From a virus (Duplodnaviria; Heunggongvirae; Uroviricota; Caudoviricetes), in IMG/VR virus record IMGVR_UViG_2526164664_000035: a stretch of 45,710 bases of DNA. One strand, written 5' to 3'. The notes below the pieces were generated by a model, which was not told where the DNA came from, made no database searches, and saw nothing but the letters and a program-made list of their open reading frames with translations. A program made the translations under genes and the position numbers. Shown piece after piece: positions 2,616 to 45,710 of this stretch; the first letter of the stretch is position 1, and each line of letters begins with the position of its first letter.

Positions 2616-4739
2616 TTAAAAGTTTCCCTCTGATAAGAAAGAATAGGTTCCTGGCCCACCTGGAATATTGCATGTCCATGCCTTTGGTTGTCCTGAAGCA
2701 GGTGCGCTATTGATAACACGCTCACCTATATCCCAGAAACCGGATGTAGGTACTGACGAAAGATAAAATGTTGTTTTTTCAACTTGCAACGCGTTTGATG
2801 GCATTCCATATGCACATAGAGAAGGTGAGTTTATGAGTACATTTCCTGAACCATAATTTCTTATACCAACATTTATAGCTGTATCAGTTTCGTATATATA
2901 CACACCACAACTAACATAGCTCCATTTCCCATTACCAGCTAAAGGTGCTGTAGAGTCTGTTTGTCCTGCACCATTAATTATAAACATAAGTTTTGACGCT
3001 GATCCCTGGTCATTGACCCACGCACCAAACCATACAAATTTCCCTTTTAGTTCTGGTGATTTGTTGAGGTCTATCGTTCGTCCCCAAACTCTATCTCCTG
3101 TCGTAACTAAGAATGAATAATTACCAGCATAGATGTTTTGAGTTTTTATCAATGTTCCTGTAGTTCCAGATGCCGCAGTCCAGAGCAACATATTTCGATC
3201 AAGATAGTTAGCAGTTAACTCTCTGTTCGCAATATCTATTAAATGCGCAGTGTCAGGGTTTTGTGTCGCCGGGTCATAACTACCAACGTATCCGATGGAG
3301 TTCACTGTGTTGTTGGCAAGATATAGCCTGTCAGTAACTTTGGACGAAAGATTATTGTGGTACATTGCTAATAAATTATTCACTTTCGATGCGTCTAATA
3401 ACTGATTATTTTCAATCGTCAGGTTTTTCGCATAGTTCGTGAAAATAAATCCGTCTTGGTTAGGTAGCGCGCTGGCGTAGCCAATCGCGGTCTGCTGATT
3501 CCCGCGAATAGATACGGTATCATTAATTTTTGAAAGGTCAGGAATTAATGTAAAATTGTTCGCGATAAGGTGGATATCCGCACGTACTGTAATAGACTCA
3601 GGTACACTATACGGGTAACCAATCTCACCGTTGCGTTCCCAATAGTTAGCATCAAGGTTAAGGCCTTTAACCCCGTAAGCCAAAAGTCCGTAGAACTTAT
3701 TTTGCTCTATATTGTTGCCATTAACTCTGACGCTCATACCGCCCTCAGCGTAAGCTGGCGTAAGTAAAACTCCACCGGCTCCGTTACCATAGATACGGCT
3801 GTTGATTATATTAATATTATTGCAGTAACCACCAACATTAATACCGTTACCGGCGTTTTGAAACAACCGGCACCCAATGATGTCAATGGAGTAACCGTTA
3901 ACTAATATTGCGTTGTTATTAGTATTAACCACGTCAATATTTTCTATTTTAATGTGGTTGGCTTCAGTAAGACTGATGCCGTTAGCTGCGTAGCCATTTC
4001 CGTCAAGACCAAAGTCCCTGAACTCGCAGAACGTAATTACCCCATCTTGTTGCGTGATTATCGGTGCCGCTGTACCCGTAGAGAAAATTCTGGACTGATA
4101 TGCGCCAGCACCTCGTATCATGGTGACAGTATTCTTAATCGTAATACCAGGGTCAACAATGAACGCCCCCTCTGGTATAACAATCTCAGTTGGCAACGTA
4201 GCATCATCAATAGCCTTCTGAAATGCAGCTTTGTTCTGAGCACCGGTGTTTCCCTCAGCAAACCCGTAGTCTGTAAGCGTCCTCAGGTCGATAGTTAGCT
4301 TTTTTGAGAGAATGGTCGATGTGCTATCGACAAACTGTGGGTTATGCATGACTAGAGAGTCGCCAAGTGAGTGATCTTCGCTCAGGAGATTGCCCTTAAA
4401 CTGATCTGGATCATACTTTAGCACATTCGGAAAATAGAACTGCTGCGCACCGTATGCATCATAAACAGCCATAGAATGGCCTTGCACAGTTACGAACTTG
4501 GCAATCTGTCCGTTATATACAGGGTAACCAGCAGCGTTAATGATGATTGGTTGCGAAACAGGAACGTGAGAACCGTCTTCGTTTTCCACATAAACCTGAA
4601 TCTGGTTTTCTGGATTTACCGGGTCAGTGTCAATTTTACCGATATAAATTTTTCCATTGGCTACGGCTTTAAAAGAGCGAGACATAGTGAAGAGTTGCGA
4701 AGGCATGCTGACCACAACATTTGCGGTGATATCTGACAT
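2616..4739 (-). CDS. Tailspike protein (P22 gp9-type head-binding N-terminal domain plus beta-helix receptor-binding domain)
   Basis: N-terminus [43 protein letters not shown] closely matches the remembered P22/Sf6/HK620 tailspike head-binding domain. Asn/Gly-rich repeats suggest a parallel beta-helix. Start moved to the internal Met at 4739, which has a GGAG RBS. Confidence 0.85.
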
Positions 4740-4860
4740 TTCATTGCTCCAGAAGAATGATATGATGCAACCATGATGTGATTGCATACCGAAATGGTAC
4801 TATTGAGTATTTATCCAGTAGGTTACGATGCCATTCCACCCAACTGGTGAGGCATCAAGG

Positions 4861-5127
4861 ATGTACAGCAAATACGACGAGGCGCAGTTTCACTTGAGAC
4901 TTCCGCATGAACTCCACGCGAAAATTAAACAGCGCGCGAAGATGAATAACAGGTCGCTGAACTCAGAGATAATTGCAGCGATTGAAGAATCGTTGGCTAA
5001 ACAAAGCTCTGCATCCGTTTACATTGATGATGCAGAGCGTATGGCAGAACAACAATCTGATATGGTTAAGAAAATGGTTTTTGAAACGCTTAAGACCATG
5101 TATAGCAATAATAAAAAGGAAACATAG
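4861..5127 (+). CDS. mnt: Mnt-like ribbon-helix-helix repressor
   Basis: FHLRLPHELHAKIKQRAKMNNRSLNSEI and DDAERMAEQQSDMVKKMVFETLK resemble remembered P22 Mnt. Start chosen at the internal Met with an AAGGA RBS. Confidence 0.65.
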   Translation: MYSKYDEAQFHLRLPHELHAKIKQRAKMNNRSLNSEIIAAIEESLAKQSSASVYIDDAERMAEQQSDMVKKMVFETLKTMYSNNKKET

Positions 5128-5197
5128 AAATCTAGTTTCCGGCTAAAATGGCATTGCCTTCATGATATCCTGTGAAAAACTAAGGAGAGTTAACCAT

Positions 5198-5683
5198 ATG
5201 AAAAAATCACTGTTAATTATCCCGCTTCTGCTGGTTGGATGCGCAAAAGTAAGTGACTATCAAGCAAGTTGCGAACAACGCTATCAAAAGCTTAGCGATA
5301 TGGCTAATTGCCTTGATGCCAGTGTGAAGAACGACTCACGCATGGCATCAGCACCAACACCTAAGCTGTATGTCCTTGCTGCAAAGATGCTCGGGAAAGG
5401 TGTCGATGAAGGCAAGATAAGTGACGCACAGGCAAGACTTGAGCTTCAGAATCTTTATGTTCAATTACAAAGCCAAGAACAAGCCCAACAAATAGCACAA
5501 AGCCAAGCATTCCAGCAGGCTTTATTGAATTATCAGGCTGTAAACACAATGCAAGCGATCGAGCAAAAAGCGCGCCAGCCTGTTATAACTCAACCTTACC
5601 CAACACGCGTTGACACATATACAAACTGCAATTCAGGATTTGGAAACACGGTAACATGCAACAGTAGCAGTAATATCAGGTAG
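5198..5683 (+). CDS. Lipoprotein of unknown function (phage moron)
   Basis: MKKSLLIIPLLLVGC signal peptide with lipobox; Gln-rich mature part. AAGGAG RBS upstream of the internal Met at 5198. Opposite strand to the late operon. Confidence 0.5.
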   Translation: MKKSLLIIPLLLVGCAKVSDYQASCEQRYQKLSDMANCLDASVKNDSRMASAPTPKLYVLAAKMLGKGVDEGKISDAQARLELQNLYVQLQSQEQAQQIAQSQAFQQALLNYQAVNTMQAIEQKARQPVITQPYPTRVDTYTNCNSGFGNTVTCNSSSNIR

Positions 5684-31928: not shown

Positions 31929-34289
31929 TCACGAAGATAATGATCGTATGGCTTCCTTAAGGGCTGGTGAGACACGTTGATTAAGTGCTTCATTAGCCCA
32001 GTCGGATTGCACGGGTATTCTACGCAATATCACTGTGTTTAAAGCAGCAAACAAACGATGCAGTAAATGTATAGAACCGGTCGCGATAGCTGTATCCACC
32101 CACTGGTCCGCATAGAGCCATGGGGCTGAAAATAAATCAGCCATCGCCTGAGTAGCAACTTCAATAGACGCTTTTTCTAGGCAAAGAACATCACCCTGAT
32201 CGCCAAAATTATGCTCAAAGTAAGGCAATCCTTCTATATTCGTGCGAATTAGAGGAAATGGGCAGCGCCCAATGCTCAGTAAAATATAGGCGTCTATACG
32301 CTGATCATCGTCACCCACCTCTGCTGACGGCAGTTTCGCTAGTTGCCCGAGTATCATCCAACTGGTTGATTTAGAAATGACCTTTGGGATTTGATCCTCT
32401 AAATTCACCAGAACACTCTTTGCATCATCCCCGTGTTTAGAAATCCACGCTAATCCATCCTCAATCTTTAGATTGACTTGTTGGTTGTCTGGCATGGCTA
32501 AAGTAAACAATCCGTTTTTTATAGGTTCTTTATATGGCTCAATGCTGAGAAGGCCCTGAATAATTCCAAAGCTGAAATATCTCTCTTTAGCTGCCATACG
32601 GCGTATGGCTTGAGCACCGATCATATCTCCAAGATAAGTGGCGTCTAGCCGTTCGCCAAGCCAAGCCCCGGCGTCTTGAGGGTCTTGTTCTGCCCGTAAA
32701 ACCAGTTCATCACAAACAGCATCCGACAGTTCCAGAAGGTAAGCTGCGGGAACTGTCGGCACCACAACATCTTCCCATCCTGAAAGGCGAAAAATACGAA
32801 CTGCCCCCATATGTTTTAACTCATTCACTACACCACGAGCTTCGTCAGAAAGTGCGTCATACCGCACGACAAATCCATTCGCTTTAGCAAACATTAATTC
32901 TACTGAGTGGGAGTTTGTGTCAGCTAGTGCGCAGCGTGCAAGAACCCGATAATAACGAAGAAGATCATACTGACTCTCATAGCTCTTTTGCGCAGCATCT
33001 ATAAGTTCCATACCGGGTGATGGAGGAAGATAGGCGATAAGATCCGTTTTCTGGTATTGATGATTGCGCACAATGTCATCATAAATAGTGCGAAGAACCC
33101 AAGGCGAGCGGTAGTCATCGGCGTATTCTGCTCCCTGTTGAAAAACTATCCGCTGGTCCGAGAGAATCTGTTGCGCCAGCTTAAATTCATCTAGGGACAT
33201 AGGCGATGTTTTAAATACCTTCGACCGGCTACCAATTGCAGACGGAGTTCGTCCGTTTGGATTTTTCAGTAACGCGTTGGCATGATAGGTCGTCAGAACA
33301 ACCACCAGCCTGTTGCCAAAACGTATACCCGCAAGTTCCTCAAGATCAGTAGCCATTTGGGAGCCTGGTTCAACGTCGTCGATAGCAAGCATAAGCGATG
33401 GACCTTCAGTGCAGTTAGACATTCGTCTTAACCAGTTACGTGCATCATTTGAGGTTAAATTCCATTCAAATTCAGCTGCAAAAAGATTGGCCAGAGCCTG
33501 AAATAGTCCTGGTCCGGAACCTCGTAACATCAGGACAGCCAAAAGATCGCTACTTTCCGTTTTTAGCGAAATTTCACGGAGGCAACTGCTTTTTCCGCTT
33601 TGTGCATCACCCTCAATGATAGTGAAAGCTGTACCCATCACAGCAGATTCAATTACAAGAGACGTGATTTTGCGAGGAAAAAGTAGGTTGTTGGCAAATG
33701 GATGTTCTGAATGCCCAGGCTGATCAGTTATATCAATCAGCAGCCGGGCTGTTTCTTCTCGCACAGCTGGCACCCAAGCATTAGTTTCTCGCCCCATCAA
33801 GGCTTCAATAGCCCAGCGCATGTCAGCCGCCGCCAACTTTGCAGAATTGGCGAGCATCTTGTTTACCGCTGCCGAGGCATCCTGTCCACCCGACCACTGT
33901 TGTCCATTACTTGAGTCATAAACGCGCGTATCTTTACCGTTCGTAACTACAACGAGAGGCGGACGTGGTGTTAACTGGTTAGCGTAGCTTTGAGCCTGTT
34001 CATAATCATCATGGGTCAGTGTCAGGTCTTCACGTTTCAGTTCAATAACCGCAAGTGGTCTCTCCCGATGAAAGATCAAAACATCCGCTCGCCCGTATTT
34101 TTTCCAGTGTGCGGCGCTATCTATTTTGTAAGTTCCATGGCCTAGCCGAACGGTAAAATGGCGCTGTTCGATAAGATCTTCGCGAGGAATGTTAGGAAAT
34201 GCTATGTTTAGTGCTGAAGTAAGCCGGCTTTCTAGCTCGGCTTCAGTTCGAACGAGTGGAGAGCCCGTTTTTGATTGCATACTTTTCAT
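31929..34289 (-). CDS. Unclassified nuclease-NTPase fusion protein (N-terminal PD-(D/E)xK-like domain plus P-loop NTPase); candidate defence protein
   Basis: 786 aa. N-terminal ...GRADVLIFHRERPLAVIELKRED (D...E-x-K, HsdR-N/Mrr-like pattern); Walker A GDAQSGKSS; Walker B-like LMLAIDDVE; long C-terminal region without recognisable motifs. GAGGA RBS 9 nt upstream. Confidence 0.55.
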   Translation of the reverse strand: MKSMQSKTGSPLVRTEAELESRLTSALNIAFPNIPREDLIEQRHFTVRLGHGTYKIDSAAHWKKYGRADVLIFHRERPLAVIELKREDLTLTHDDYEQAQSYANQLTPRPPLVVVTNGKDTRVYDSSNGQQWSGGQDASAAVNKMLANSAKLAAADMRWAIEALMGRETNAWVPAVREETARLLIDITDQPGHSEHPFANNLLFPRKITSLVIESAVMGTAFTIIEGDAQSGKSSCLREISLKTESSDLLAVLMLRGSGPGLFQALANLFAAEFEWNLTSNDARNWLRRMSNCTEGPSLMLAIDDVEPGSQMATDLEELAGIRFGNRLVVVLTTYHANALLKNPNGRTPSAIGSRSKVFKTSPMSLDEFKLAQQILSDQRIVFQQGAEYADDYRSPWVLRTIYDDIVRNHQYQKTDLIAYLPPSPGMELIDAAQKSYESQYDLLRYYRVLARCALADTNSHSVELMFAKANGFVVRYDALSDEARGVVNELKHMGAVRIFRLSGWEDVVVPTVPAAYLLELSDAVCDELVLRAEQDPQDAGAWLGERLDATYLGDMIGAQAIRRMAAKERYFSFGIIQGLLSIEPYKEPIKNGLFTLAMPDNQQVNLKIEDGLAWISKHGDDAKSVLVNLEDQIPKVISKSTSWMILGQLAKLPSAEVGDDDQRIDAYILLSIGRCPFPLIRTNIEGLPYFEHNFGDQGDVLCLEKASIEVATQAMADLFSAPWLYADQWVDTAIATGSIHLLHRLFAALNTVILRRIPVQSDWANEALNQRVSPALKEAIRSLSS

Positions 34290-40613: not shown

Positions 40614-40946
40614 CTAATAAAAGTTCTTTACATCCATAAAATCCATGATGTATTTATCTAATCCTTTGCGATTGAAAAAACCGAAACTTTCAAAGTCTTT
40701 TATTATTTTCCAATCACTAAATACGTATGCCAAACATACCAAATGAAGAAATTTCACAGGCATAGTATAATTTGCTATTTCGTAATATCTTTCTTTGTGG
40801 TTTTCTGGGCAAGATTCATTTGTGAATTTAAATAGAATATAAAAACTACGAACCGCAGAAAAGAGAGCCATAGAGGATTCATTATCAAAAATAGAAAATT
40901 GTTTGCATAATTCTTCTGCATTTTTTGACTTACATGAGTTTATCAT
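40614..40946 (-). CDS. Hypothetical protein, last gene of an AT-rich three-gene cluster
   Basis: 110-aa ORF 18 bp downstream of the 2-TM protein gene, same strand, strongly AT-rich; no motif recognised. Confidence 0.35.
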   Translation of the reverse strand: MINSCKSKNAEELCKQFSIFDNESSMALFSAVRSFYILFKFTNESCPENHKERYYEIANYTMPVKFLHLVCLAYVFSDWKIIKDFESFGFFNRKGLDKYIMDFMDVKNFY

Positions 40947-40963
40947 GTAACTCTCTAAATAGG

Positions 40964-41347
40964 TTACCGCATCTGAGGCTGAGTAGTTTTTTTATTTCTA
41001 CCAGTTATTCTGAGGGCATCAAACTCTCTTCTAGATACTTCAGCGAGGCTATAAAACGATGATTCAAAAGAGCGCAAGTCATCAATTTCTTTTTGTCTTT
41101 CTGAAACCTCATGCATGTGCAAATTTTGTTTAATAATGCTGATGTTAGCCTCTTTTTGTAAGTTTATTGATTTAATTAACATAATCATTGTAAAAAATGT
41201 CAAAATGGGGTTGGTTACGCCGCCAACGAAATCACCAAATGTTCCCCATTCAGACTTATCAATTGGAAAACCATTTAACGGATCGAAATTGAAGAAATAA
41301 ATCAACCATGTAACTGATATAACTAAAAAGGCAACATACTTTATCAT
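40964..41347 (-). CDS. Small two-TM membrane protein (candidate membrane effector)
   Basis: 127 aa; two hydrophobic helices (YVAFLVISVTWLIYFF; VGGVTNPILTFFTMIMLI) and a charged C-terminal tail; its start overlaps the stop of the upstream gene. Confidence 0.5.
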   Translation of the reverse strand: MIKYVAFLVISVTWLIYFFNFDPLNGFPIDKSEWGTFGDFVGGVTNPILTFFTMIMLIKSINLQKEANISIIKQNLHMHEVSERQKEIDDLRSFESSFYSLAEVSRREFDALRITGRNKKTTQPQMR

Positions 41348-41348
41348 A

Positions 41349-42167
41349 TCAATCCGTTATAACTCGGTGAAGACTATATTTTTTAATGACACCAAGAAAG
41401 TTTCTGATTGATGTCACCTCTAGCCGTACACGAGTAAAATCACCATTATCTGTGTTGACGTCTAAGTTTCTAGATAGCCAGCGTTTTTGATCTGCTGGAA
41501 AATCTCTCCAAAGATATGAAGGTTCAAAACTTACAGACTCAGAATCTTCCTCAAGAATGAGCCTTCCCGTCCCCGTTAGCCGATTAAATCTTGTAATAGA
41601 AGCTTCAATAATGATCCTTTCATCATCGGCACGTTCAACAATTAGATTTTCAAGGGTCGTGTGATCATACCGAGCAAGATTTGTCCTTCTCCGTTTCAGC
41701 TCAACAGTATAATTTTGTTCTTCTATGGGCTTATGAAGCTTCAATAGTGGGCCATAAAGCCTCTTCATTAATGAACTATAATCTGACTCAAGTTCTTTAA
41801 CAATTCTAGCAGCCCTTTTATATGTGAAATTATAAGGTGTTAATAATGGTCTTGTAAGATAATAAGACATAACATCTAGAAATGCCCCCTCTCCGATTGC
41901 GCCATAGTTTCTACGTTGTTCCTCACCTGTGATCTTGAGCATGAAACGTTGTCTAAACGACCCTTCATAACTGGTACGAAAAGATGCGGTTATGCCTTCG
42001 ATTGATGGGATTTTAGTAACTACTTCGCGATTTAGAATCGTATTAGTGAGGACTGTAACTATCTCTGACGTGCCTTCAAGTGCTTTTGACCCATAGTAAA
42101 AATCAAGCTCTGTGAATCTTTCTTCTCCATCACTTACTACCATTTCCATGGGAACATGAATTTCCAT
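41349..42167 (-). CDS. Hypothetical cytoplasmic protein, first gene of the AT-rich cluster
   Basis: 272-aa ORF with no recognised motif; translationally coupled to the downstream 2-TM gene; AT-rich context. Confidence 0.5.
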   Translation of the reverse strand: MEIHVPMEMVVSDGEERFTELDFYYGSKALEGTSEIVTVLTNTILNREVVTKIPSIEGITASFRTSYEGSFRQRFMLKITGEEQRRNYGAIGEGAFLDVMSYYLTRPLLTPYNFTYKRAARIVKELESDYSSLMKRLYGPLLKLHKPIEEQNYTVELKRRRTNLARYDHTTLENLIVERADDERIIIEASITRFNRLTGTGRLILEEDSESVSFEPSYLWRDFPADQKRWLSRNLDVNTDNGDFTRVRLEVTSIRNFLGVIKKYSLHRVITD

Positions 42168-42509
42168 TCTCTAATTCCAAATAAAAACCATGGGTTTAAT
42201 ATGTCCTAATTGATTTGGTTTTGGCAACTATTTTTGATTGTTTTTCAAGAATAATTCGAAAGCTATTAATTAATGGCTGGAACTAATAGGTTCCAGTTTT
42301 CAACTAATCCAGTGACCTGCTCCCCGCTGATCAACTCAGACTGTTGTTAGCAACTTACGCTCCTGGTACGGAGCGGGCATTGATTACCCGCTCCGTTCAC
42401 GTTCCGCCTGGAAGTTCTGCAATTTATGTCTATCGGCTATTGAAAACCTTCCGGTCCTTCCCAATATCGAAACTGGCACCTTTGCCAGATAACAAAGAGA
42501 TACGGGAAC

Positions 42510-42947: not shown

Positions 42948-43420
42948 ATGGATATTGATACGCTGGGTGGCCAGGAACTTCGGGATAAGATTTTTGCTGG
43001 GCTCAAAATATACGAGGGTAAACCCTTCATCGAACGGTTCGGTCTGTTTATGGGCAAGGCACAGTTGCTAGAGTTTGGCCTAAAAAAATTCTTGTTTCTT
43101 TTCCGGGATACAACCTTGATGAAGAAAAATTAGAGAGGCTGACATTAGGCCAGACCCGCGTTGAGCTTAAAAAGCTGGGGCTGCGCACGGACTATAATGC
43201 TTACCTGAAGTCATTCAAAGATCAGCGCAATACGATGGCTCACGAGTTCCTTGCTAATTTTGCGGTCACACAGCAGCTTTTAGACGGAGCTGCACTTATT
43301 CGCACATTTGAGCGTGAGTTAGACCATGCCTGTTACGCGGTGGAGCAGTTGATCATCCTTTTCGACTTCATCAACGGTGCCGGTGACGTAACCGCCTGGC
43401 TTGAGCCTACTGCCCCCTGA
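42948..43420 (+). pseudogene. HepT-like HEPN-domain protein gene interrupted by a frameshift at an A7 tract
   Basis: ORFs 42927-43133 and 43235-43420 overlap in two open frames; adding one A to the A7 run at 43082-43088 fuses them into one ~157-aa ORF containing RNTMAHEF (an Rx4HxY-type HEPN motif with F in place of Y). AAGGA RBS before the Met at 42948. Confidence 0.45.
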
Positions 43421-43720: not shown

Positions 43721-44575
43721 TTAATAACTATTGATAATTTTGTGAAGTGCAGGGTTAATTGTCGATGAAATATCAAAATCGGAATTTCTAATCGACCCAG
43801 TGCTCCATCCCTCTTTGAAAAAGAGCAGTATAAGGTTAATATATGAATTGTAAGAATCAATAGTTGATTTTACTTCATTCGAAAGATATTTTAGTCGAGG
43901 GTTTACTTTAACAGCAACTGCTAATTCATCATATTTATTCAAAGTATCGTTCAGTTCTGATGGGAAATCGTCACTTGGAAACCCACAAATAAACTGCTCA
44001 TCAATATAATTATCTTTTAAGTATTTACCTAACTTATCTAGTTTACTTTTAATCCCTACTACACTTTCAATGATTTCCTTATCATAATCGCTCAAAAATA
44101 TCTTTAGCCATGCTGACTTATCGGTTTTCAGCAATGAGTTCTTATCCTCCTCGAACATTATGGTTACTGTTTCATAACCTTTTTCCTCGGCTCTATTTAA
44201 ATATTTTCTTAATTCACTTTTCGGAAGATGCTTCCAGTACAAGCTAGGCTCTTTTGAATTGTTATTAAGACAGGTCCGAATAATAACAACTGGATCATTT
44301 ATGCTTTCCCAATAAGCTATATTTTTCATGGGTACAGAAACATTAGGGTTTTCTTCTAGCGTAGTCGCGGTTGTTTTCACCTGCACACCAATAAACATTC
44401 CAGTTGAATGATTTTGGTCATCATAAACTTCAACTTGAGCATCTAACCCCATATCAATATCAAGAATACGGCAAGGCCAGATGAAATTACTTGATATCCA
44501 GTATGCAAAATAAAACTCTCCGGCATTACCATTTGCCACTACGTCTATATATCTCATACCGATATTTGTATTCAT
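43721..44575 (-). CDS. Hypothetical protein with N-terminal PD-(D/E)xK-like (DUF4365-like) nuclease motifs
   Basis: 284 aa, AT-rich; N-terminal ...GEFYFAYWISSNFIWPCRILDIDMGLDAQVEVY...GMFIGVQVKT shows a D-x-D...E/Q-x-K pattern. Family assignment is from memory only. Confidence 0.45.
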   Translation of the reverse strand: MNTNIGMRYIDVVANGNAGEFYFAYWISSNFIWPCRILDIDMGLDAQVEVYDDQNHSTGMFIGVQVKTTATTLEENPNVSVPMKNIAYWESINDPVVIIRTCLNNNSKEPSLYWKHLPKSELRKYLNRAEEKGYETVTIMFEEDKNSLLKTDKSAWLKIFLSDYDKEIIESVVGIKSKLDKLGKYLKDNYIDEQFICGFPSDDFPSELNDTLNKYDELAVAVKVNPRLKYLSNEVKSTIDSYNSYINLILLFFKEGWSTGSIRNSDFDISSTINPALHKIINSY

Positions 44576-44711: not shown

Positions 44712-45710
44712 CTAACTCTGTTTTTCATTTAATTTATCAAATATTTTACCCAAAGTAAGCAAAAGTCGCTCTTGAAATTGATTGGTAATCTCTGGGAGTC
44801 GATTATTTATTTTGGTATCACCACCATAAAATAAATTTCTACTTTTATACGATTCAAAACGTCCTTCTGATGTTTGGTCAGGGAAAAGCAAATATTTTTC
44901 AATACATGCGTTGTTCCGGATAACTCTGTATGCTTTTGGCATATCGTCTAAAAGACCATCATGTATGATATGGTTTCGTACACTTTCTATTTCATTAATA
45001 AATGGGCATTGCTCAAACAAAGATCCTTTATAATTATTTAAGCTCACTTTCTTTTTATCACCATATTGAGAGTTCTTGGATGTGAGTTTAACATAAGAAG
45101 AGAACTGTGTTTTTAAATTTTCAATTTCTATAGCTAGTTTTGTTATGTAGTCGAGCAAACTGTACATGCGGATATAAATAAATCCAAGTAATGCAAAGAG
45201 CTTAGTCACGACTGGAGATGTAACATATCTTATACCGTCCTCCTCTTCAATGTTAGGGAAAAACAAGGGTTCAAAATTCAACGTGTAATAAAACTCCCCT
45301 TGTAGTTGCAACACTTCCTTGCTGCATTCCTGTATGCTACTTACAATTTTACAGCAATCAAAAAGGTAAAGGCCTTTATTTACGTCAGTATGCCCTTTGA
45401 ATTTATCAATAAATAAAACAAATGTTTCTTTTGAAACTACGGATTCAGAGTTCAAACCTGCTGTTGATAAAAACTCAGGGGCCATATAAAGGAACTTGTG
45501 GTAGTTTTCTAATCCATCAAAAATGCTATTAGCTAGAGCATCATGAATATTAACGCATAATGCATCGATCGCATAAAGATGATTCCCTCTGTTCGGGTAC
45601 CATCCACCTTGAGGATCATGTATAAAGTAAATGTCCTCACCTCCAATTGAGTCAGTTGGTATCCCTCTTAAAGTCAAATACATGCTTTCATATGAAGGTA
45701 TCATATCCAT
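44712..45710 (-). CDS. Hypothetical protein, possible HEPN/Abi-like; 5' end at the window edge
   Basis: 332-aa ORF, AT-rich; contains VRNHIIHDG (an Rx4H HEPN-like motif). The first codon sits on the last bases of the window, so the N-terminus may be incomplete. Confidence 0.4.
   Translation of the reverse strand: MDMIPSYESMYLTLRGIPTDSIGGEDIYFIHDPQGGWYPNRGNHLYAIDALCVNIHDALANSIFDGLENYHKFLYMAPEFLSTAGLNSESVVSKETFVLFIDKFKGHTDVNKGLYLFDCCKIVSSIQECSKEVLQLQGEFYYTLNFEPLFFPNIEEEDGIRYVTSPVVTKLFALLGFIYIRMYSLLDYITKLAIEIENLKTQFSSYVKLTSKNSQYGDKKKVSLNNYKGSLFEQCPFINEIESVRNHIIHDGLLDDMPKAYRVIRNNACIEKYLLFPDQTSEGRFESYKSRNLFYGGDTKINNRLPEITNQFQERLLLTLGKIFDKLNEKQS

What the first reader, a model, noticed from the sequence alone, without database searches (positions are those of the whole stretch)
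40614..42167. AT-rich three-gene operon with a small two-TM protein: candidate abortive-infection or effector module
Seen in sequence: three tightly packed minus-strand ORFs (272 aa cytoplasmic, 127 aa with two TM helices, 110 aa), with the first two overlapping start to stop. Their composition is clearly more AT-rich than the flanking IS66 DNA, suggesting recent horizontal acquisition. Inference: a soluble protein paired with a small membrane protein is a common layout in abortive-infection systems. I recognise none of the three proteins.
Basis: partly seen in the sequence, partly recalled or inferred. Interest (0 to 1): 0.7.

Follow-up and report, generated by a model that had tools for sequence, protein, structure and literature searches.

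The report
Frameshifted two-gene AbiC-like phage-defence candidate
The "three-gene operon" is really a conserved two-gene cassette, carried by prophages, satellites and plasmids, whose membrane protein is a distant relative of the lactococcal abortive-infection proteins AbiC/AbiP; it always follows an uncharacterised soluble OB-fold protein, and in this copy it is split by a one-base deletion.

Summary
The three minus-strand ORFs exist and are AT-rich. But the 127-aa and 110-aa ORFs are two halves of one 244-aa gene (B). A one-base contraction of an A8 tract to A7 (window 40987-40993) splits it. E. coli O26:H11 11368 and 80 other complete E. coli genomes carry the intact gene.

The real unit is two genes. 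A (272 aa, soluble) has a novel N-terminal domain plus a C-terminal OB fold, with weak Pfam DUF7946/DUF7947 matches. B has two TM helices, a long stalk helix and a helical C-domain.

In every evaluable locus examined (about 50 sequences), B directly follows A, with junctions from an 8-nt overlap to a 14-nt gap. The carriers are lambdoid prophages (between icd and int), a satellite-like element, integrase islets, ColE1-type and IncX1 plasmids, and defence islands.

Profile comparison places B in the AbiC/AbiP (Pfam putAbiC) superfamily: 99.9% over the full length, 84.5% for the C-domain alone. Neither protein reaches the curated thresholds of Pfam, NCBIfam or PADLOC, and no paper mentions them.

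Best reading: an untested two-component variant of AbiC/P-type abortive infection, inactivated in this copy either biologically or by a homopolymer sequencing error. The Abi guess is partly supported; the three-gene anatomy is wrong.

The parts
41349..42167 (-). Gene A: a 272-aa soluble protein with a novel alpha/beta N-terminal domain (weak DUF7946 match) and a C-terminal OB fold (weak DUF7947 match, signature TRFNxLTGTGR). It matches phrog_13337. The RefSeq product WP_000426255.1 starts 6 codons later.
40614..41347 (-). Gene B, frameshifted here: 734 nt where the intact allele has 735 nt and encodes 244 aa (WP_000599124.1). It has a 2-TM hairpin with a WGTFGDFVGGxxNP motif, a long stalk helix and a helical, putAbiC-like C-domain. 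It matches phrog_8999.
   Evidence: AF2 model (of cluster representative P0001, one residue different): pLDDT 86.3, helices at 2-20 and 32-110. hhalign against proteins carrying putAbiC: 99.9%, E 4e-34. PHROG E 6e-40.
40964..41347 (-). It ends in an out-of-frame tail, ...KKTTQPQMR*.
   Evidence: (B-profile E 4e-65).
40614..40946 (-). It corresponds to the putAbiC-like C-domain. The true reading frame is open upstream as far as the A tract.
   Evidence: B-profile E 2e-54. jackhmmer from a putAbiC domain reaches this fragment.
40987..40993 (-). Frameshift site: an A7 tract on the coding strand. The intact allele has A8 (codons AAT AAA AAA AAC = N K K N).
   Evidence: Alignment with O26:H11 11368 shows a single gap as the only difference. 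Tract position. 1 of 82 complete E. coli genomes has A7. The exact 127-aa product is on 57 contigs.
41345..41351 (-). A-B junction: TGA, one base, ATG. This fits translational coupling. Homologues range from an 8-nt overlap to a 14-nt gap.
   Evidence: plus gene calls.
42198..42227 (-). Weak sigma-70-like match (TTGCCA-18-CATATT, 9/12) about 30 nt upstream of A's ATG. It is only a candidate operon promoter.
   Evidence: The total number of promoter-like sites in the region is not clearly above the shuffled expectation.

Best explanation
The locus is a mobile two-gene cassette, A then B.

- B is an inner-membrane protein of the AbiC/AbiP (putAbiC) abortive-infection superfamily. It has an N-in 2-TM hairpin with the conserved WGxFGDFxGGxxNP motif, a stalk helix of about 50 residues, and a cytoplasmic helical domain.
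- A is a soluble partner found only with this B subfamily. It has a novel N-domain and a C-terminal OB fold.

Proposed mechanism (inferred). In uninfected cells A and the cytoplasmic domain of B form an inactive complex. During infection a phage product is bound through A's OB fold and/or B's C-domain. That product could be a nucleic-acid intermediate, or a structural protein, as for AbiP (major tail protein). B then perturbs the membrane (depolarisation or permeabilisation), as shown for the AbiP-like PdpSau, and the infection aborts.

In this window B is cut in two by an A8-to-A7 contraction, so this copy is most likely non-functional, unless the deletion is a sequencing error.

Shown: the two-gene anatomy, the frameshift, strict A-B linkage, the remote homology of B, the OB fold of A, and carriage on mobile elements. 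Inferred: the defence function, which partner senses and which executes, and the membrane effect.
For: Anatomy and frameshift
- one gap in an A tract is the only difference from O26:H11 11368, which is annotated with two genes.
- All B homologues are 244-278 aa.

Linkage of A and B
- B directly follows A in all fetched genomic and assembly loci.
- The same holds in 8/8 viral contigs or phage records with a full-length B, in 14/14 evaluable metagenome loci, and on IncX1 and ColRNAI plasmids. It holds down to about 26-29% identity of A.
- Relatives that share only B's N-terminal module have no A.

Homology of B
- The N-terminal 110 residues are 34% identical to a putAbiC protein.
- Of the 120 best of 4147 profile hits, 28 carry Pfam putAbiC, 14 match PADLOC AbiP and 9 match AbiC.
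- hhalign gives 99.9% / E 4e-34 over 242 columns. The C-domain alone gives 84.5% / E 7e-6 against the putAbiC domain. jackhmmer from that domain reaches B's C-terminal fragment.

Structure of A
- Confident AF2 model with a canonical OB fold.

Context
- The pair lies between icd and int/xis of lambdoid prophages, at the end of an int/DUF3987/capsid/protease satellite-like element, in integrase-plus-pair islets, and next to Mrr_cat, TIR, HNH, SduA_C and NACHT genes.
- In the window it sits beside DUF4365/REase-like and HEPN-like genes.
- B genes are AT-rich (GC 0.31-0.43) even in loci from Pseudomonas, a genus I know to be GC-rich (host GC was not measured here).

Literature
- AbiC and AbiP form one structural group. 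AbiP is membrane-anchored, binds RNA/ssDNA and is triggered by a major tail protein (PMC13064643).
- The prophage protein PdpSau is AbiP-like, has an OB-like region and depolarises the membrane on infection (PMC10127798).
Against: - There is no experimental evidence for this pair.
- Neither protein reaches the curated thresholds of Pfam, NCBIfam or PADLOC 2.0.
- The C-domain link to putAbiC is only moderately supported on its own (84.5%).
- The OB domain of A is not basic (pI about 6.9), so nucleic-acid binding is not implied. OB folds also bind proteins and sugars.
- A's N-domain has no structural match, so an enzymatic role for A cannot be excluded.
- AbiC and AbiP act as single genes, so the need for A is unexplained.
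- This particular copy is frameshifted.
- The mechanisms of AbiC and AbiP themselves are unresolved.
Confidence: 0.6

Rival explanations
1. The frameshift is a homopolymer sequencing or assembly error. In the organism, B is intact and the cassette is functional.
For: Over 11.4-11.7 kb the window differs from both reference genomes only by indels, with no substitutions. These include two A8-to-A7 contractions 2.1 kb apart, each breaking a gene. Only 1 of 82 complete genomes shares the A7 allele in B.
Against: The exact truncated products are on record from many independent assemblies: the 127-aa product on 57 contigs, the 110-aa on 33, and the neighbouring gene's fragments on 46-92 contigs. That argues for real, recurrent or clonal slippage alleles. 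FORC_028 shares the A7 in B but not the second contraction.
Confidence: 0.4
2. The pair acts as a superinfection-exclusion or entry-blocking system rather than by abortive infection. B would act at the inner membrane during genome injection, with A as a cytoplasmic cofactor, and the cell would survive.
For: Membrane location and prophage-end position. A partial relative of B in phage P2-EC45 is annotated 'putative lysogenic conversion protein'. The membrane-bound defence system SNIPE, which acts at injection, is a precedent (PMC13190303).
Against: B's homologues AbiC and AbiP act after DNA entry, on replication, transcription or capsid production (PMC13064643). PdpSau does not block adsorption or DNA entry. 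No nuclease or receptor-binding domain was detected.
Confidence: 0.12
3. The pair is a toxin-antitoxin or addiction module that stabilises its carrier element, with B as a membrane toxin and A as its antitoxin. It would have no primary anti-phage role.
For: The genes are tightly coupled, with the soluble partner upstream. The pair occurs on small ColE1-type and IncX1 plasmids, near type I toxins.
Against: At 272 aa with two domains, A is larger than I would expect for an antitoxin (my own knowledge; not tested here). No DNA-binding or antitoxin family matches were found. B's relatives are defence proteins. The two roles are not mutually exclusive.
Confidence: 0.1
4. The pair serves the phage or mobile element's own life cycle (for example lysis timing or membrane remodelling), or is a non-defence lysogenic-conversion factor.
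For: Both proteins fall in PHROG families of unknown function. B has two TM helices, as class II holins do (holin classes are from my own knowledge).
Against: In prophages the pair sits at the int-proximal accessory end, not in the lysis cassette. It also occurs on plasmids and integrase-only islets with no phage genes. B has a cytoplasmic region of about 185 residues, unlike holins.
Confidence: 0.06
5. One reading: three separate functional proteins forming a three-gene operon.
For: Three ORFs can be read in this window. RefSeq annotates three CDSs in FORC_028.
Against: A single-base gap explains the split. All 39 homologues, and 81 of 82 complete E. coli genomes, encode one 244-aa protein. 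The 110-aa ORF's own ATG lies inside the conserved region of the fused protein.
Confidence: 0.02

Closest known systems
AbiC (Lactococcus lactis) / Pfam PF16872 putAbiC / PADLOC AbiC
   Same: Both have two N-terminal TM helices with the WGxFGDFxGGxxNP motif, a following stalk helix and a helical C-domain. Both are carried on mobile elements. Profile-profile match over the full length: 99.9%, E 4e-34.
   Different: B does not reach the Pfam or PADLOC thresholds. It is shorter (244 aa against about 290-500 aa) and has a divergent C-domain. It is always preceded by gene A, whereas AbiC is described as a single-gene system (PMC13064643).
AbiP (L. lactis) and PdpSau (S. aureus prophage)
   Same: They are membrane-anchored Abi proteins of the same structural group as AbiC, and relatives of B match the PADLOC AbiP model. 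PdpSau is prophage-encoded, has an OB-fold-like nucleic-acid-binding region and causes membrane depolarisation on infection (PMC10127798). AbiP binds RNA/ssDNA and is triggered by a major tail protein (PMC13064643).
   Different: Each is a single polypeptide with one TM helix. Here the OB fold is on a separate protein (A), and B has two TM helices. No direct sequence match between A and AbiP or PdpSau was tested or seen.
Pfam DUF7946 (PF25678) + DUF7947 (PF25679); PHROG 13337
   Same: A has the same two-domain order. 27/28 and 19/28 homologues give weak matches, and some carry precomputed Pfam assignments. The PHROG match is strong.
   Different: The window protein scores 14-15 bits against cut-offs of 27. 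These families have no known function and no literature.
RexA/RexB of phage lambda (functional analogue only; from established knowledge)
   Same: A prophage-encoded two-gene Abi system: a soluble cytoplasmic sensor plus an inner-membrane protein that dissipates membrane potential.
   Different: No Pfam, NCBIfam or PADLOC model of any named family, RexA/RexB models (if those libraries hold them) included, matched A or B. From my own knowledge RexB has four TM helices; I did not test a Rex model directly. The resemblance is in layout only.

Membership tests
AbiC / putAbiC (PF16872) superfamily | N-terminal membrane module: TM hairpin with the WGxFGDFxGGxxNP motif followed by a conserved stalk (Q..FE..FF) | tested here: met
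   BLASTP against a putAbiC protein: 34% identity over 117 residues, E 2e-19. hhalign on the N-terminal parts only: 99.9%, E 1e-33. Two hydrophobic segments.
AbiC / putAbiC (PF16872) superfamily | Pfam putAbiC C-terminal domain at the curated threshold | tested here: inconclusive
   hmmscan finds no match for B or for any of 39 homologues. The C-terminal profile aligns to the putAbiC domain at 84.5%, E 7e-6, and jackhmmer links the two through intermediates.
AbiC / AbiP as defined in PADLOC-DB 2.0 | Match to the PADLOC AbiC or AbiP HMM | tested here: not met
   No match for B at E<=1. Only more distant relatives match: 9 for AbiC and 14 for AbiP, out of 120.
AbiC / AbiP | Single gene sufficient for an abortive-infection phenotype | not testable with these tools
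   No experiment was possible. Genomically, B is never found without A, which argues against single-gene sufficiency.
Pfam DUF7946 + DUF7947 | Both domains present, in order, at the gathering score | tested here: inconclusive
   The window protein scores 14 and 15 bits against cut-offs of 27. The domain order is correct, and 27/28 and 19/28 homologues match, with best E 6e-5 and 1e-6.
OB-fold proteins | Five-stranded beta-barrel with a helix between strands 3 and 4 | tested here: met
Known anti-phage systems (PADLOC 2.0 catalogue, including PD-T4/T7/Lambda, Rst and PDC candidates) | HMM match of either protein | tested here: not met
   No PADLOC match for A or B. Later releases of DefenseFinder and PADLOC could not be searched.
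Phase-variable (contingency) locus | Homopolymer tract conserved among homologues and found in both lengths within populations | tested here: not met
   Both A7 and A8 alleles exist in E. coli. But the tract is absent from homologues in Citrobacter, Kosakonia, Pseudomonas, Aeromonas and Klebsiella phage.

The most novel reading that the evidence does not exclude
A-B is a previously unnamed, widespread two-component defence system in which a dedicated OB-fold protein (DUF7946/DUF7947) is the phage sensor that gates an AbiC-type membrane effector. If so, the natural split into sensor and effector would give a genetic handle on the AbiC/AbiP family, whose mechanism remains unresolved (AbiC was described in 1992). 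It would also assign a function to two Pfam DUFs and two PHROG families.
Probability: 0.4. Interest if true: 0.6.

Novelty: new variant of a known kind. Interest (0 to 1): 0.42.

Why it matters
AbiC and AbiP are long-known abortive-infection proteins, yet how they sense phage and how they act remain unknown. This subfamily always keeps its membrane protein next to a separate soluble OB-fold protein. That offers a natural separation of functions that can be dissected genetically.

The cassette moves between prophages, a satellite-like element, ColE1-type and IncX1 plasmids and islands in Enterobacterales, Pseudomonas and Aeromonas. If it is active, it affects phage susceptibility of EHEC lineages (O26, O111, O103) and of plasmid hosts.

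For annotation, the finding shows how a one-base homopolymer change turns one defence gene into two 'hypothetical proteins'. It also shows that RefSeq probably starts gene A six codons too late.

Tried and rejected
- Direct family scans of A, of both B fragments and of the repaired B returned nothing above threshold in Pfam, NCBIfam or PADLOC.
- Profile searches against PDB sequences found nothing.
- Foldseek against PDB with A gave no significant hit, and nothing for the N-domain. The afdb50 library was unavailable.
- Literature searches returned nothing for DUF7946/7947, putAbiC, the WP accessions or the PHROG ids. Neither the WP accessions nor the DUF names occur in the DefensePredictor supplements; its only putAbiC hits belong to another protein, annotated AbiC.
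- The genome-contig scan with A gave only one locus. The viral-contig scan with A's patterns gave none.
- Abi_C (PF14355, the AbiJ/SadR HEPN RNase domain; PMC13590631) was considered and rejected. It is a different domain from putAbiC. Among B's invariant and nearly invariant residues there is no histidine, so no conserved Rx4-6H motif.
- Programmed phase variation was considered and judged unlikely, because the A8 tract is not conserved in homologues.
- A holin role was considered and judged unlikely because of B's position and size.

Full report
**1. What is in the sequence**

The three minus-strand ORFs exist at the stated coordinates: 41349-42167 (272 aa), 40964-41347 (127 aa) and 40614-40946 (110 aa). 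The region is AT-rich, with GC 0.29-0.41. The IS66-family DNA at 36.4-40.3 kb has GC 0.54-0.62. The IS66 DNA (an ISCro1 copy plus a truncated ISEc22 transposase) lies only downstream of the locus. The upstream side is more AT-rich DNA.

The stop of the 272-aa ORF and the start of the 127-aa ORF do not overlap. The sequence reads TGA, one base, ATG.

**2. Two genes, not three**

Reading the sequence, the frame of the 110-aa ORF is open upstream as far as a run of seven A's inside the end of the 127-aa ORF.

A megablast against complete E. coli genomes found the 2.4-kb region in 82 of 5426 genomes. All but one listed hit is one base longer and is annotated with two genes. In E. coli O26:H11 11368 the two genes are WP_000426255.1 and a 244-aa WP_000599124.1. 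The only difference in the aligned stretch is A8 in place of the window's A7. On the + strand this is T7 at 40987-40993.

All 39 homologues of the repaired protein are full length, 244-278 aa, and are conserved across the junction. A profile of these homologues matches both window fragments, at E 4e-65 and 2e-54. I call the 272-aa gene A and the 244-aa gene B.

**3. Is the frameshift real?**

Among the 82 complete genomes, only FORC_028 shares A7. The window is not FORC_028, however. Over the last 11.4-11.7 kb it differs from FORC_028 and from 11368 by 5 and 6 indels and by no substitution. The indels include:

- a second A8-to-A7 contraction at 43082-43088, which splits a neighbouring 157-aa gene;
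- four single-base insertions in the ISEc22 remnant.

That pattern looks like homopolymer or indel sequencing error. On the other hand, the exact truncated products are on record from many other assemblies: the 127-aa product on 57 contigs, the 110-aa on 33, and the neighbour's fragments on 46-92. I cannot decide between a real minority allele and an error.

The tract is not conserved in homologues, so a conserved phase-variation device is unlikely.

**4. Protein A**

A has no hydrophobic segment. Its Pfam matches are weak, to DUF7946 (residues 20-135) and DUF7947 (residues 187-215), at 14-15 bits against cut-offs of 27. The same two families are matched by 27 and 19 of 28 homologues. It matches phrog_13337 (unknown function) at E 5e-62.

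Residues invariant across the family include:

- LDFYxGxKAxEG;
- an HKP motif;
- TRFNxLTGTGR, in the first OB loop.

The OB domain is not basic, with pI about 6.9. Residues before Met7 are conserved in all homologues, and the model places them in a strand. The 272-aa start is therefore more likely than RefSeq's 266-aa start.

**5. Protein B**

B itself has no Pfam, NCBIfam or PADLOC match. It matches phrog_8999 at E 6e-40.

A profile search of 1.84 billion representatives gave 4147 hits at E<=1e-3. About 100 of the best hits are full-length, B-like proteins. More distant ones share only residues about 5-120. Of the 120 best, 28 carry Pfam putAbiC, 14 match PADLOC AbiP and 9 match AbiC.

| Comparison of the B family with 26 putAbiC-carrying proteins | Probability | E-value |
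|---|---|---|
| Full length, 242 columns | 99.9% | 4e-34 |
| N-terminal module only | 99.9% | 1e-33 |
| C-terminal region only (B 162-234 against the Pfam putAbiC domain) | 84.5% | 7e-6 |

jackhmmer started from a putAbiC domain reaches B's C-terminus, including the 110-aa fragment. B is therefore a divergent member of the AbiC/AbiP superfamily with the same overall architecture.

**6. The pair is a unit**

B directly follows A in every evaluable locus:

- 19 genomic and assembly loci in about 10 contexts;
- 8 of 8 viral contigs or phage records with a full-length B, including Klebsiella phage Kp4865-4;
- 14 of 14 evaluable metagenome loci;
- IncX1 and ColRNAI plasmids.

Junctions range from an 8-nt overlap to a 14-nt gap. 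The linkage holds down to 26-29% identity of A. Relatives that share only B's membrane module have no A nearby. A is therefore tied to the B-type protein, not to the membrane module alone.

**7. Where it lives**

- Citrobacter and Kosakonia: between icd and the int/xis genes of lambdoid prophages.
- Pseudomonas: at the end of an integrase/DUF3987/capsid/S78-protease satellite-like element.
- Islets holding only an integrase and the pair.
- Islands next to Mrr_cat, a TIR protein, HNH, resolvase, FRG or SduA_C genes.
- A circular ColE1/Rop-type plasmid of about 6.5 kb in Mixta theicola.
- IncX1 plasmids, beside a NACHT protein.

In the window the neighbours are a HEPN-named 157-aa gene, a DUF4365/REase-like gene and a 332-aa protein with a weak HEPN_Cthe2314 match. 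B genes are AT-rich in all hosts. This is the typical habitat of anti-phage cargo.

**8. Mechanism**

What the literature establishes:

- AbiC (two TM helices) and AbiP (one TM helix) form one structural group.
- AbiP is membrane-anchored, binds RNA/ssDNA non-specifically, is not toxic alone, and is triggered by a major tail protein.
- AbiC reduces capsid protein production (PMC13064643).
- The prophage protein PdpSau is AbiP-like, has an OB-like region, and causes membrane depolarisation and permeabilisation on Kayvirus infection without blocking DNA entry (PMC10127798).

By analogy I propose that A-B is a split version of this design. A, through its OB fold, recognises a phage cue. It signals through B's cytoplasmic domain, and the TM hairpins of B then compromise the membrane. 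Every step of this is inference.

Alternatives are entry exclusion, a toxin-antitoxin or addiction role, and a function in the carrier element's own life cycle.

**9. Comparison with what is known, and novelty**

B works like, and is remotely related to, AbiC/AbiP. But it fails the curated models, and unlike them it is never alone. A belongs, weakly, to two Pfam DUFs with no literature. PADLOC 2.0 does not contain the pair. No paper or DefensePredictor supplement that I could search mentions it. Newer catalogues could not be checked.

I rate it a new variant of a known kind: a two-component AbiC/P-type candidate system. The copy in this window is broken.

**10. Verdict**

- Interest is moderate. 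This is a clean, testable candidate that could open up the AbiC/P mechanism. It is not surprising to a specialist, it is untested, and it is inactivated here.

Noticed in passing
window 42948-43420 (+), tract at 43082-43088: A second A8-to-A7 contraction splits a 157-aa gene into two 61-aa ORFs. The gene is WP_000350517.1, named 'RiboL-PSP-HEPN domain-containing protein' in UniRef. It is intact in both O26:H11 11368 and FORC_028. The fragments are also on record from 46-92 other contigs.
   Followed up: partly
window 39788, 39801, 39807, 39866: Four single-base insertions in the truncated ISEc22 (IS66-family) transposase remnant, relative to both reference genomes. There are no substitutions anywhere in 11.4-11.7 kb. 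The source assembly may be indel-prone.
   Followed up: partly
window 43721-44575 (-) and 44712-45710 (-): A DUF4365 protein (Pfam E 3e-13; PADLOC Aga_REase-like E 5e-12) lies next to a 332-aa protein with a weak HEPN_Cthe2314 match and a strong phrog_31026 match. This is probably another defence gene pair. The 332-aa ORF runs to the last base of the window.
   Followed up: partly
window 31929-34289 (-): An intact 786-aa ORF with HsdR_N-type N-terminal domains. In O26:H11 11368 an IS3 insertion of about 1.3 kb splits the same gene into two CDSs. The window lacks that insertion.
   Followed up: partly
L003 (Mixta theicola NZ_NWUO01000029.1), whole contig: The 6605-bp contig has a 127-bp terminal direct overlap, so it is a circular replicon of about 6.48 kb. 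It is related to ColE1/Rop-type small plasmids and carries the A-B pair across the junction.
   Followed up: partly
L059 (E. coli IncX1 plasmid pEC213_3, 3947-5502) and L060 (ColRNAI plasmid, 3947-5502): A distant branch of the pair (A about 29% identical) sits on IncX1 conjugative plasmids and small ColRNAI plasmids of E. coli, Salmonella and Klebsiella. The genes overlap by 4 nt. On IncX1 the pair lies between type I toxin genes (dinQ, dqlB), with a NACHT gene about 2.7 kb downstream.
   Followed up: partly
window 42149-42167 (-): RefSeq starts gene A at the second ATG (266 aa). Conservation of the residues upstream of that Met in all homologues, together with the AF2 strand at residues 3-12, favours the 272-aa start.
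   Followed up: yes
AJ512679.1 (phage P2-EC45), 358-645: A 'putative lysogenic conversion protein' encoded by phage P2-EC45 shares B's N-terminal membrane module (30% identity over residues 8-131). AbiC-type membrane modules therefore also occur in P2-like phages.
   Followed up: no
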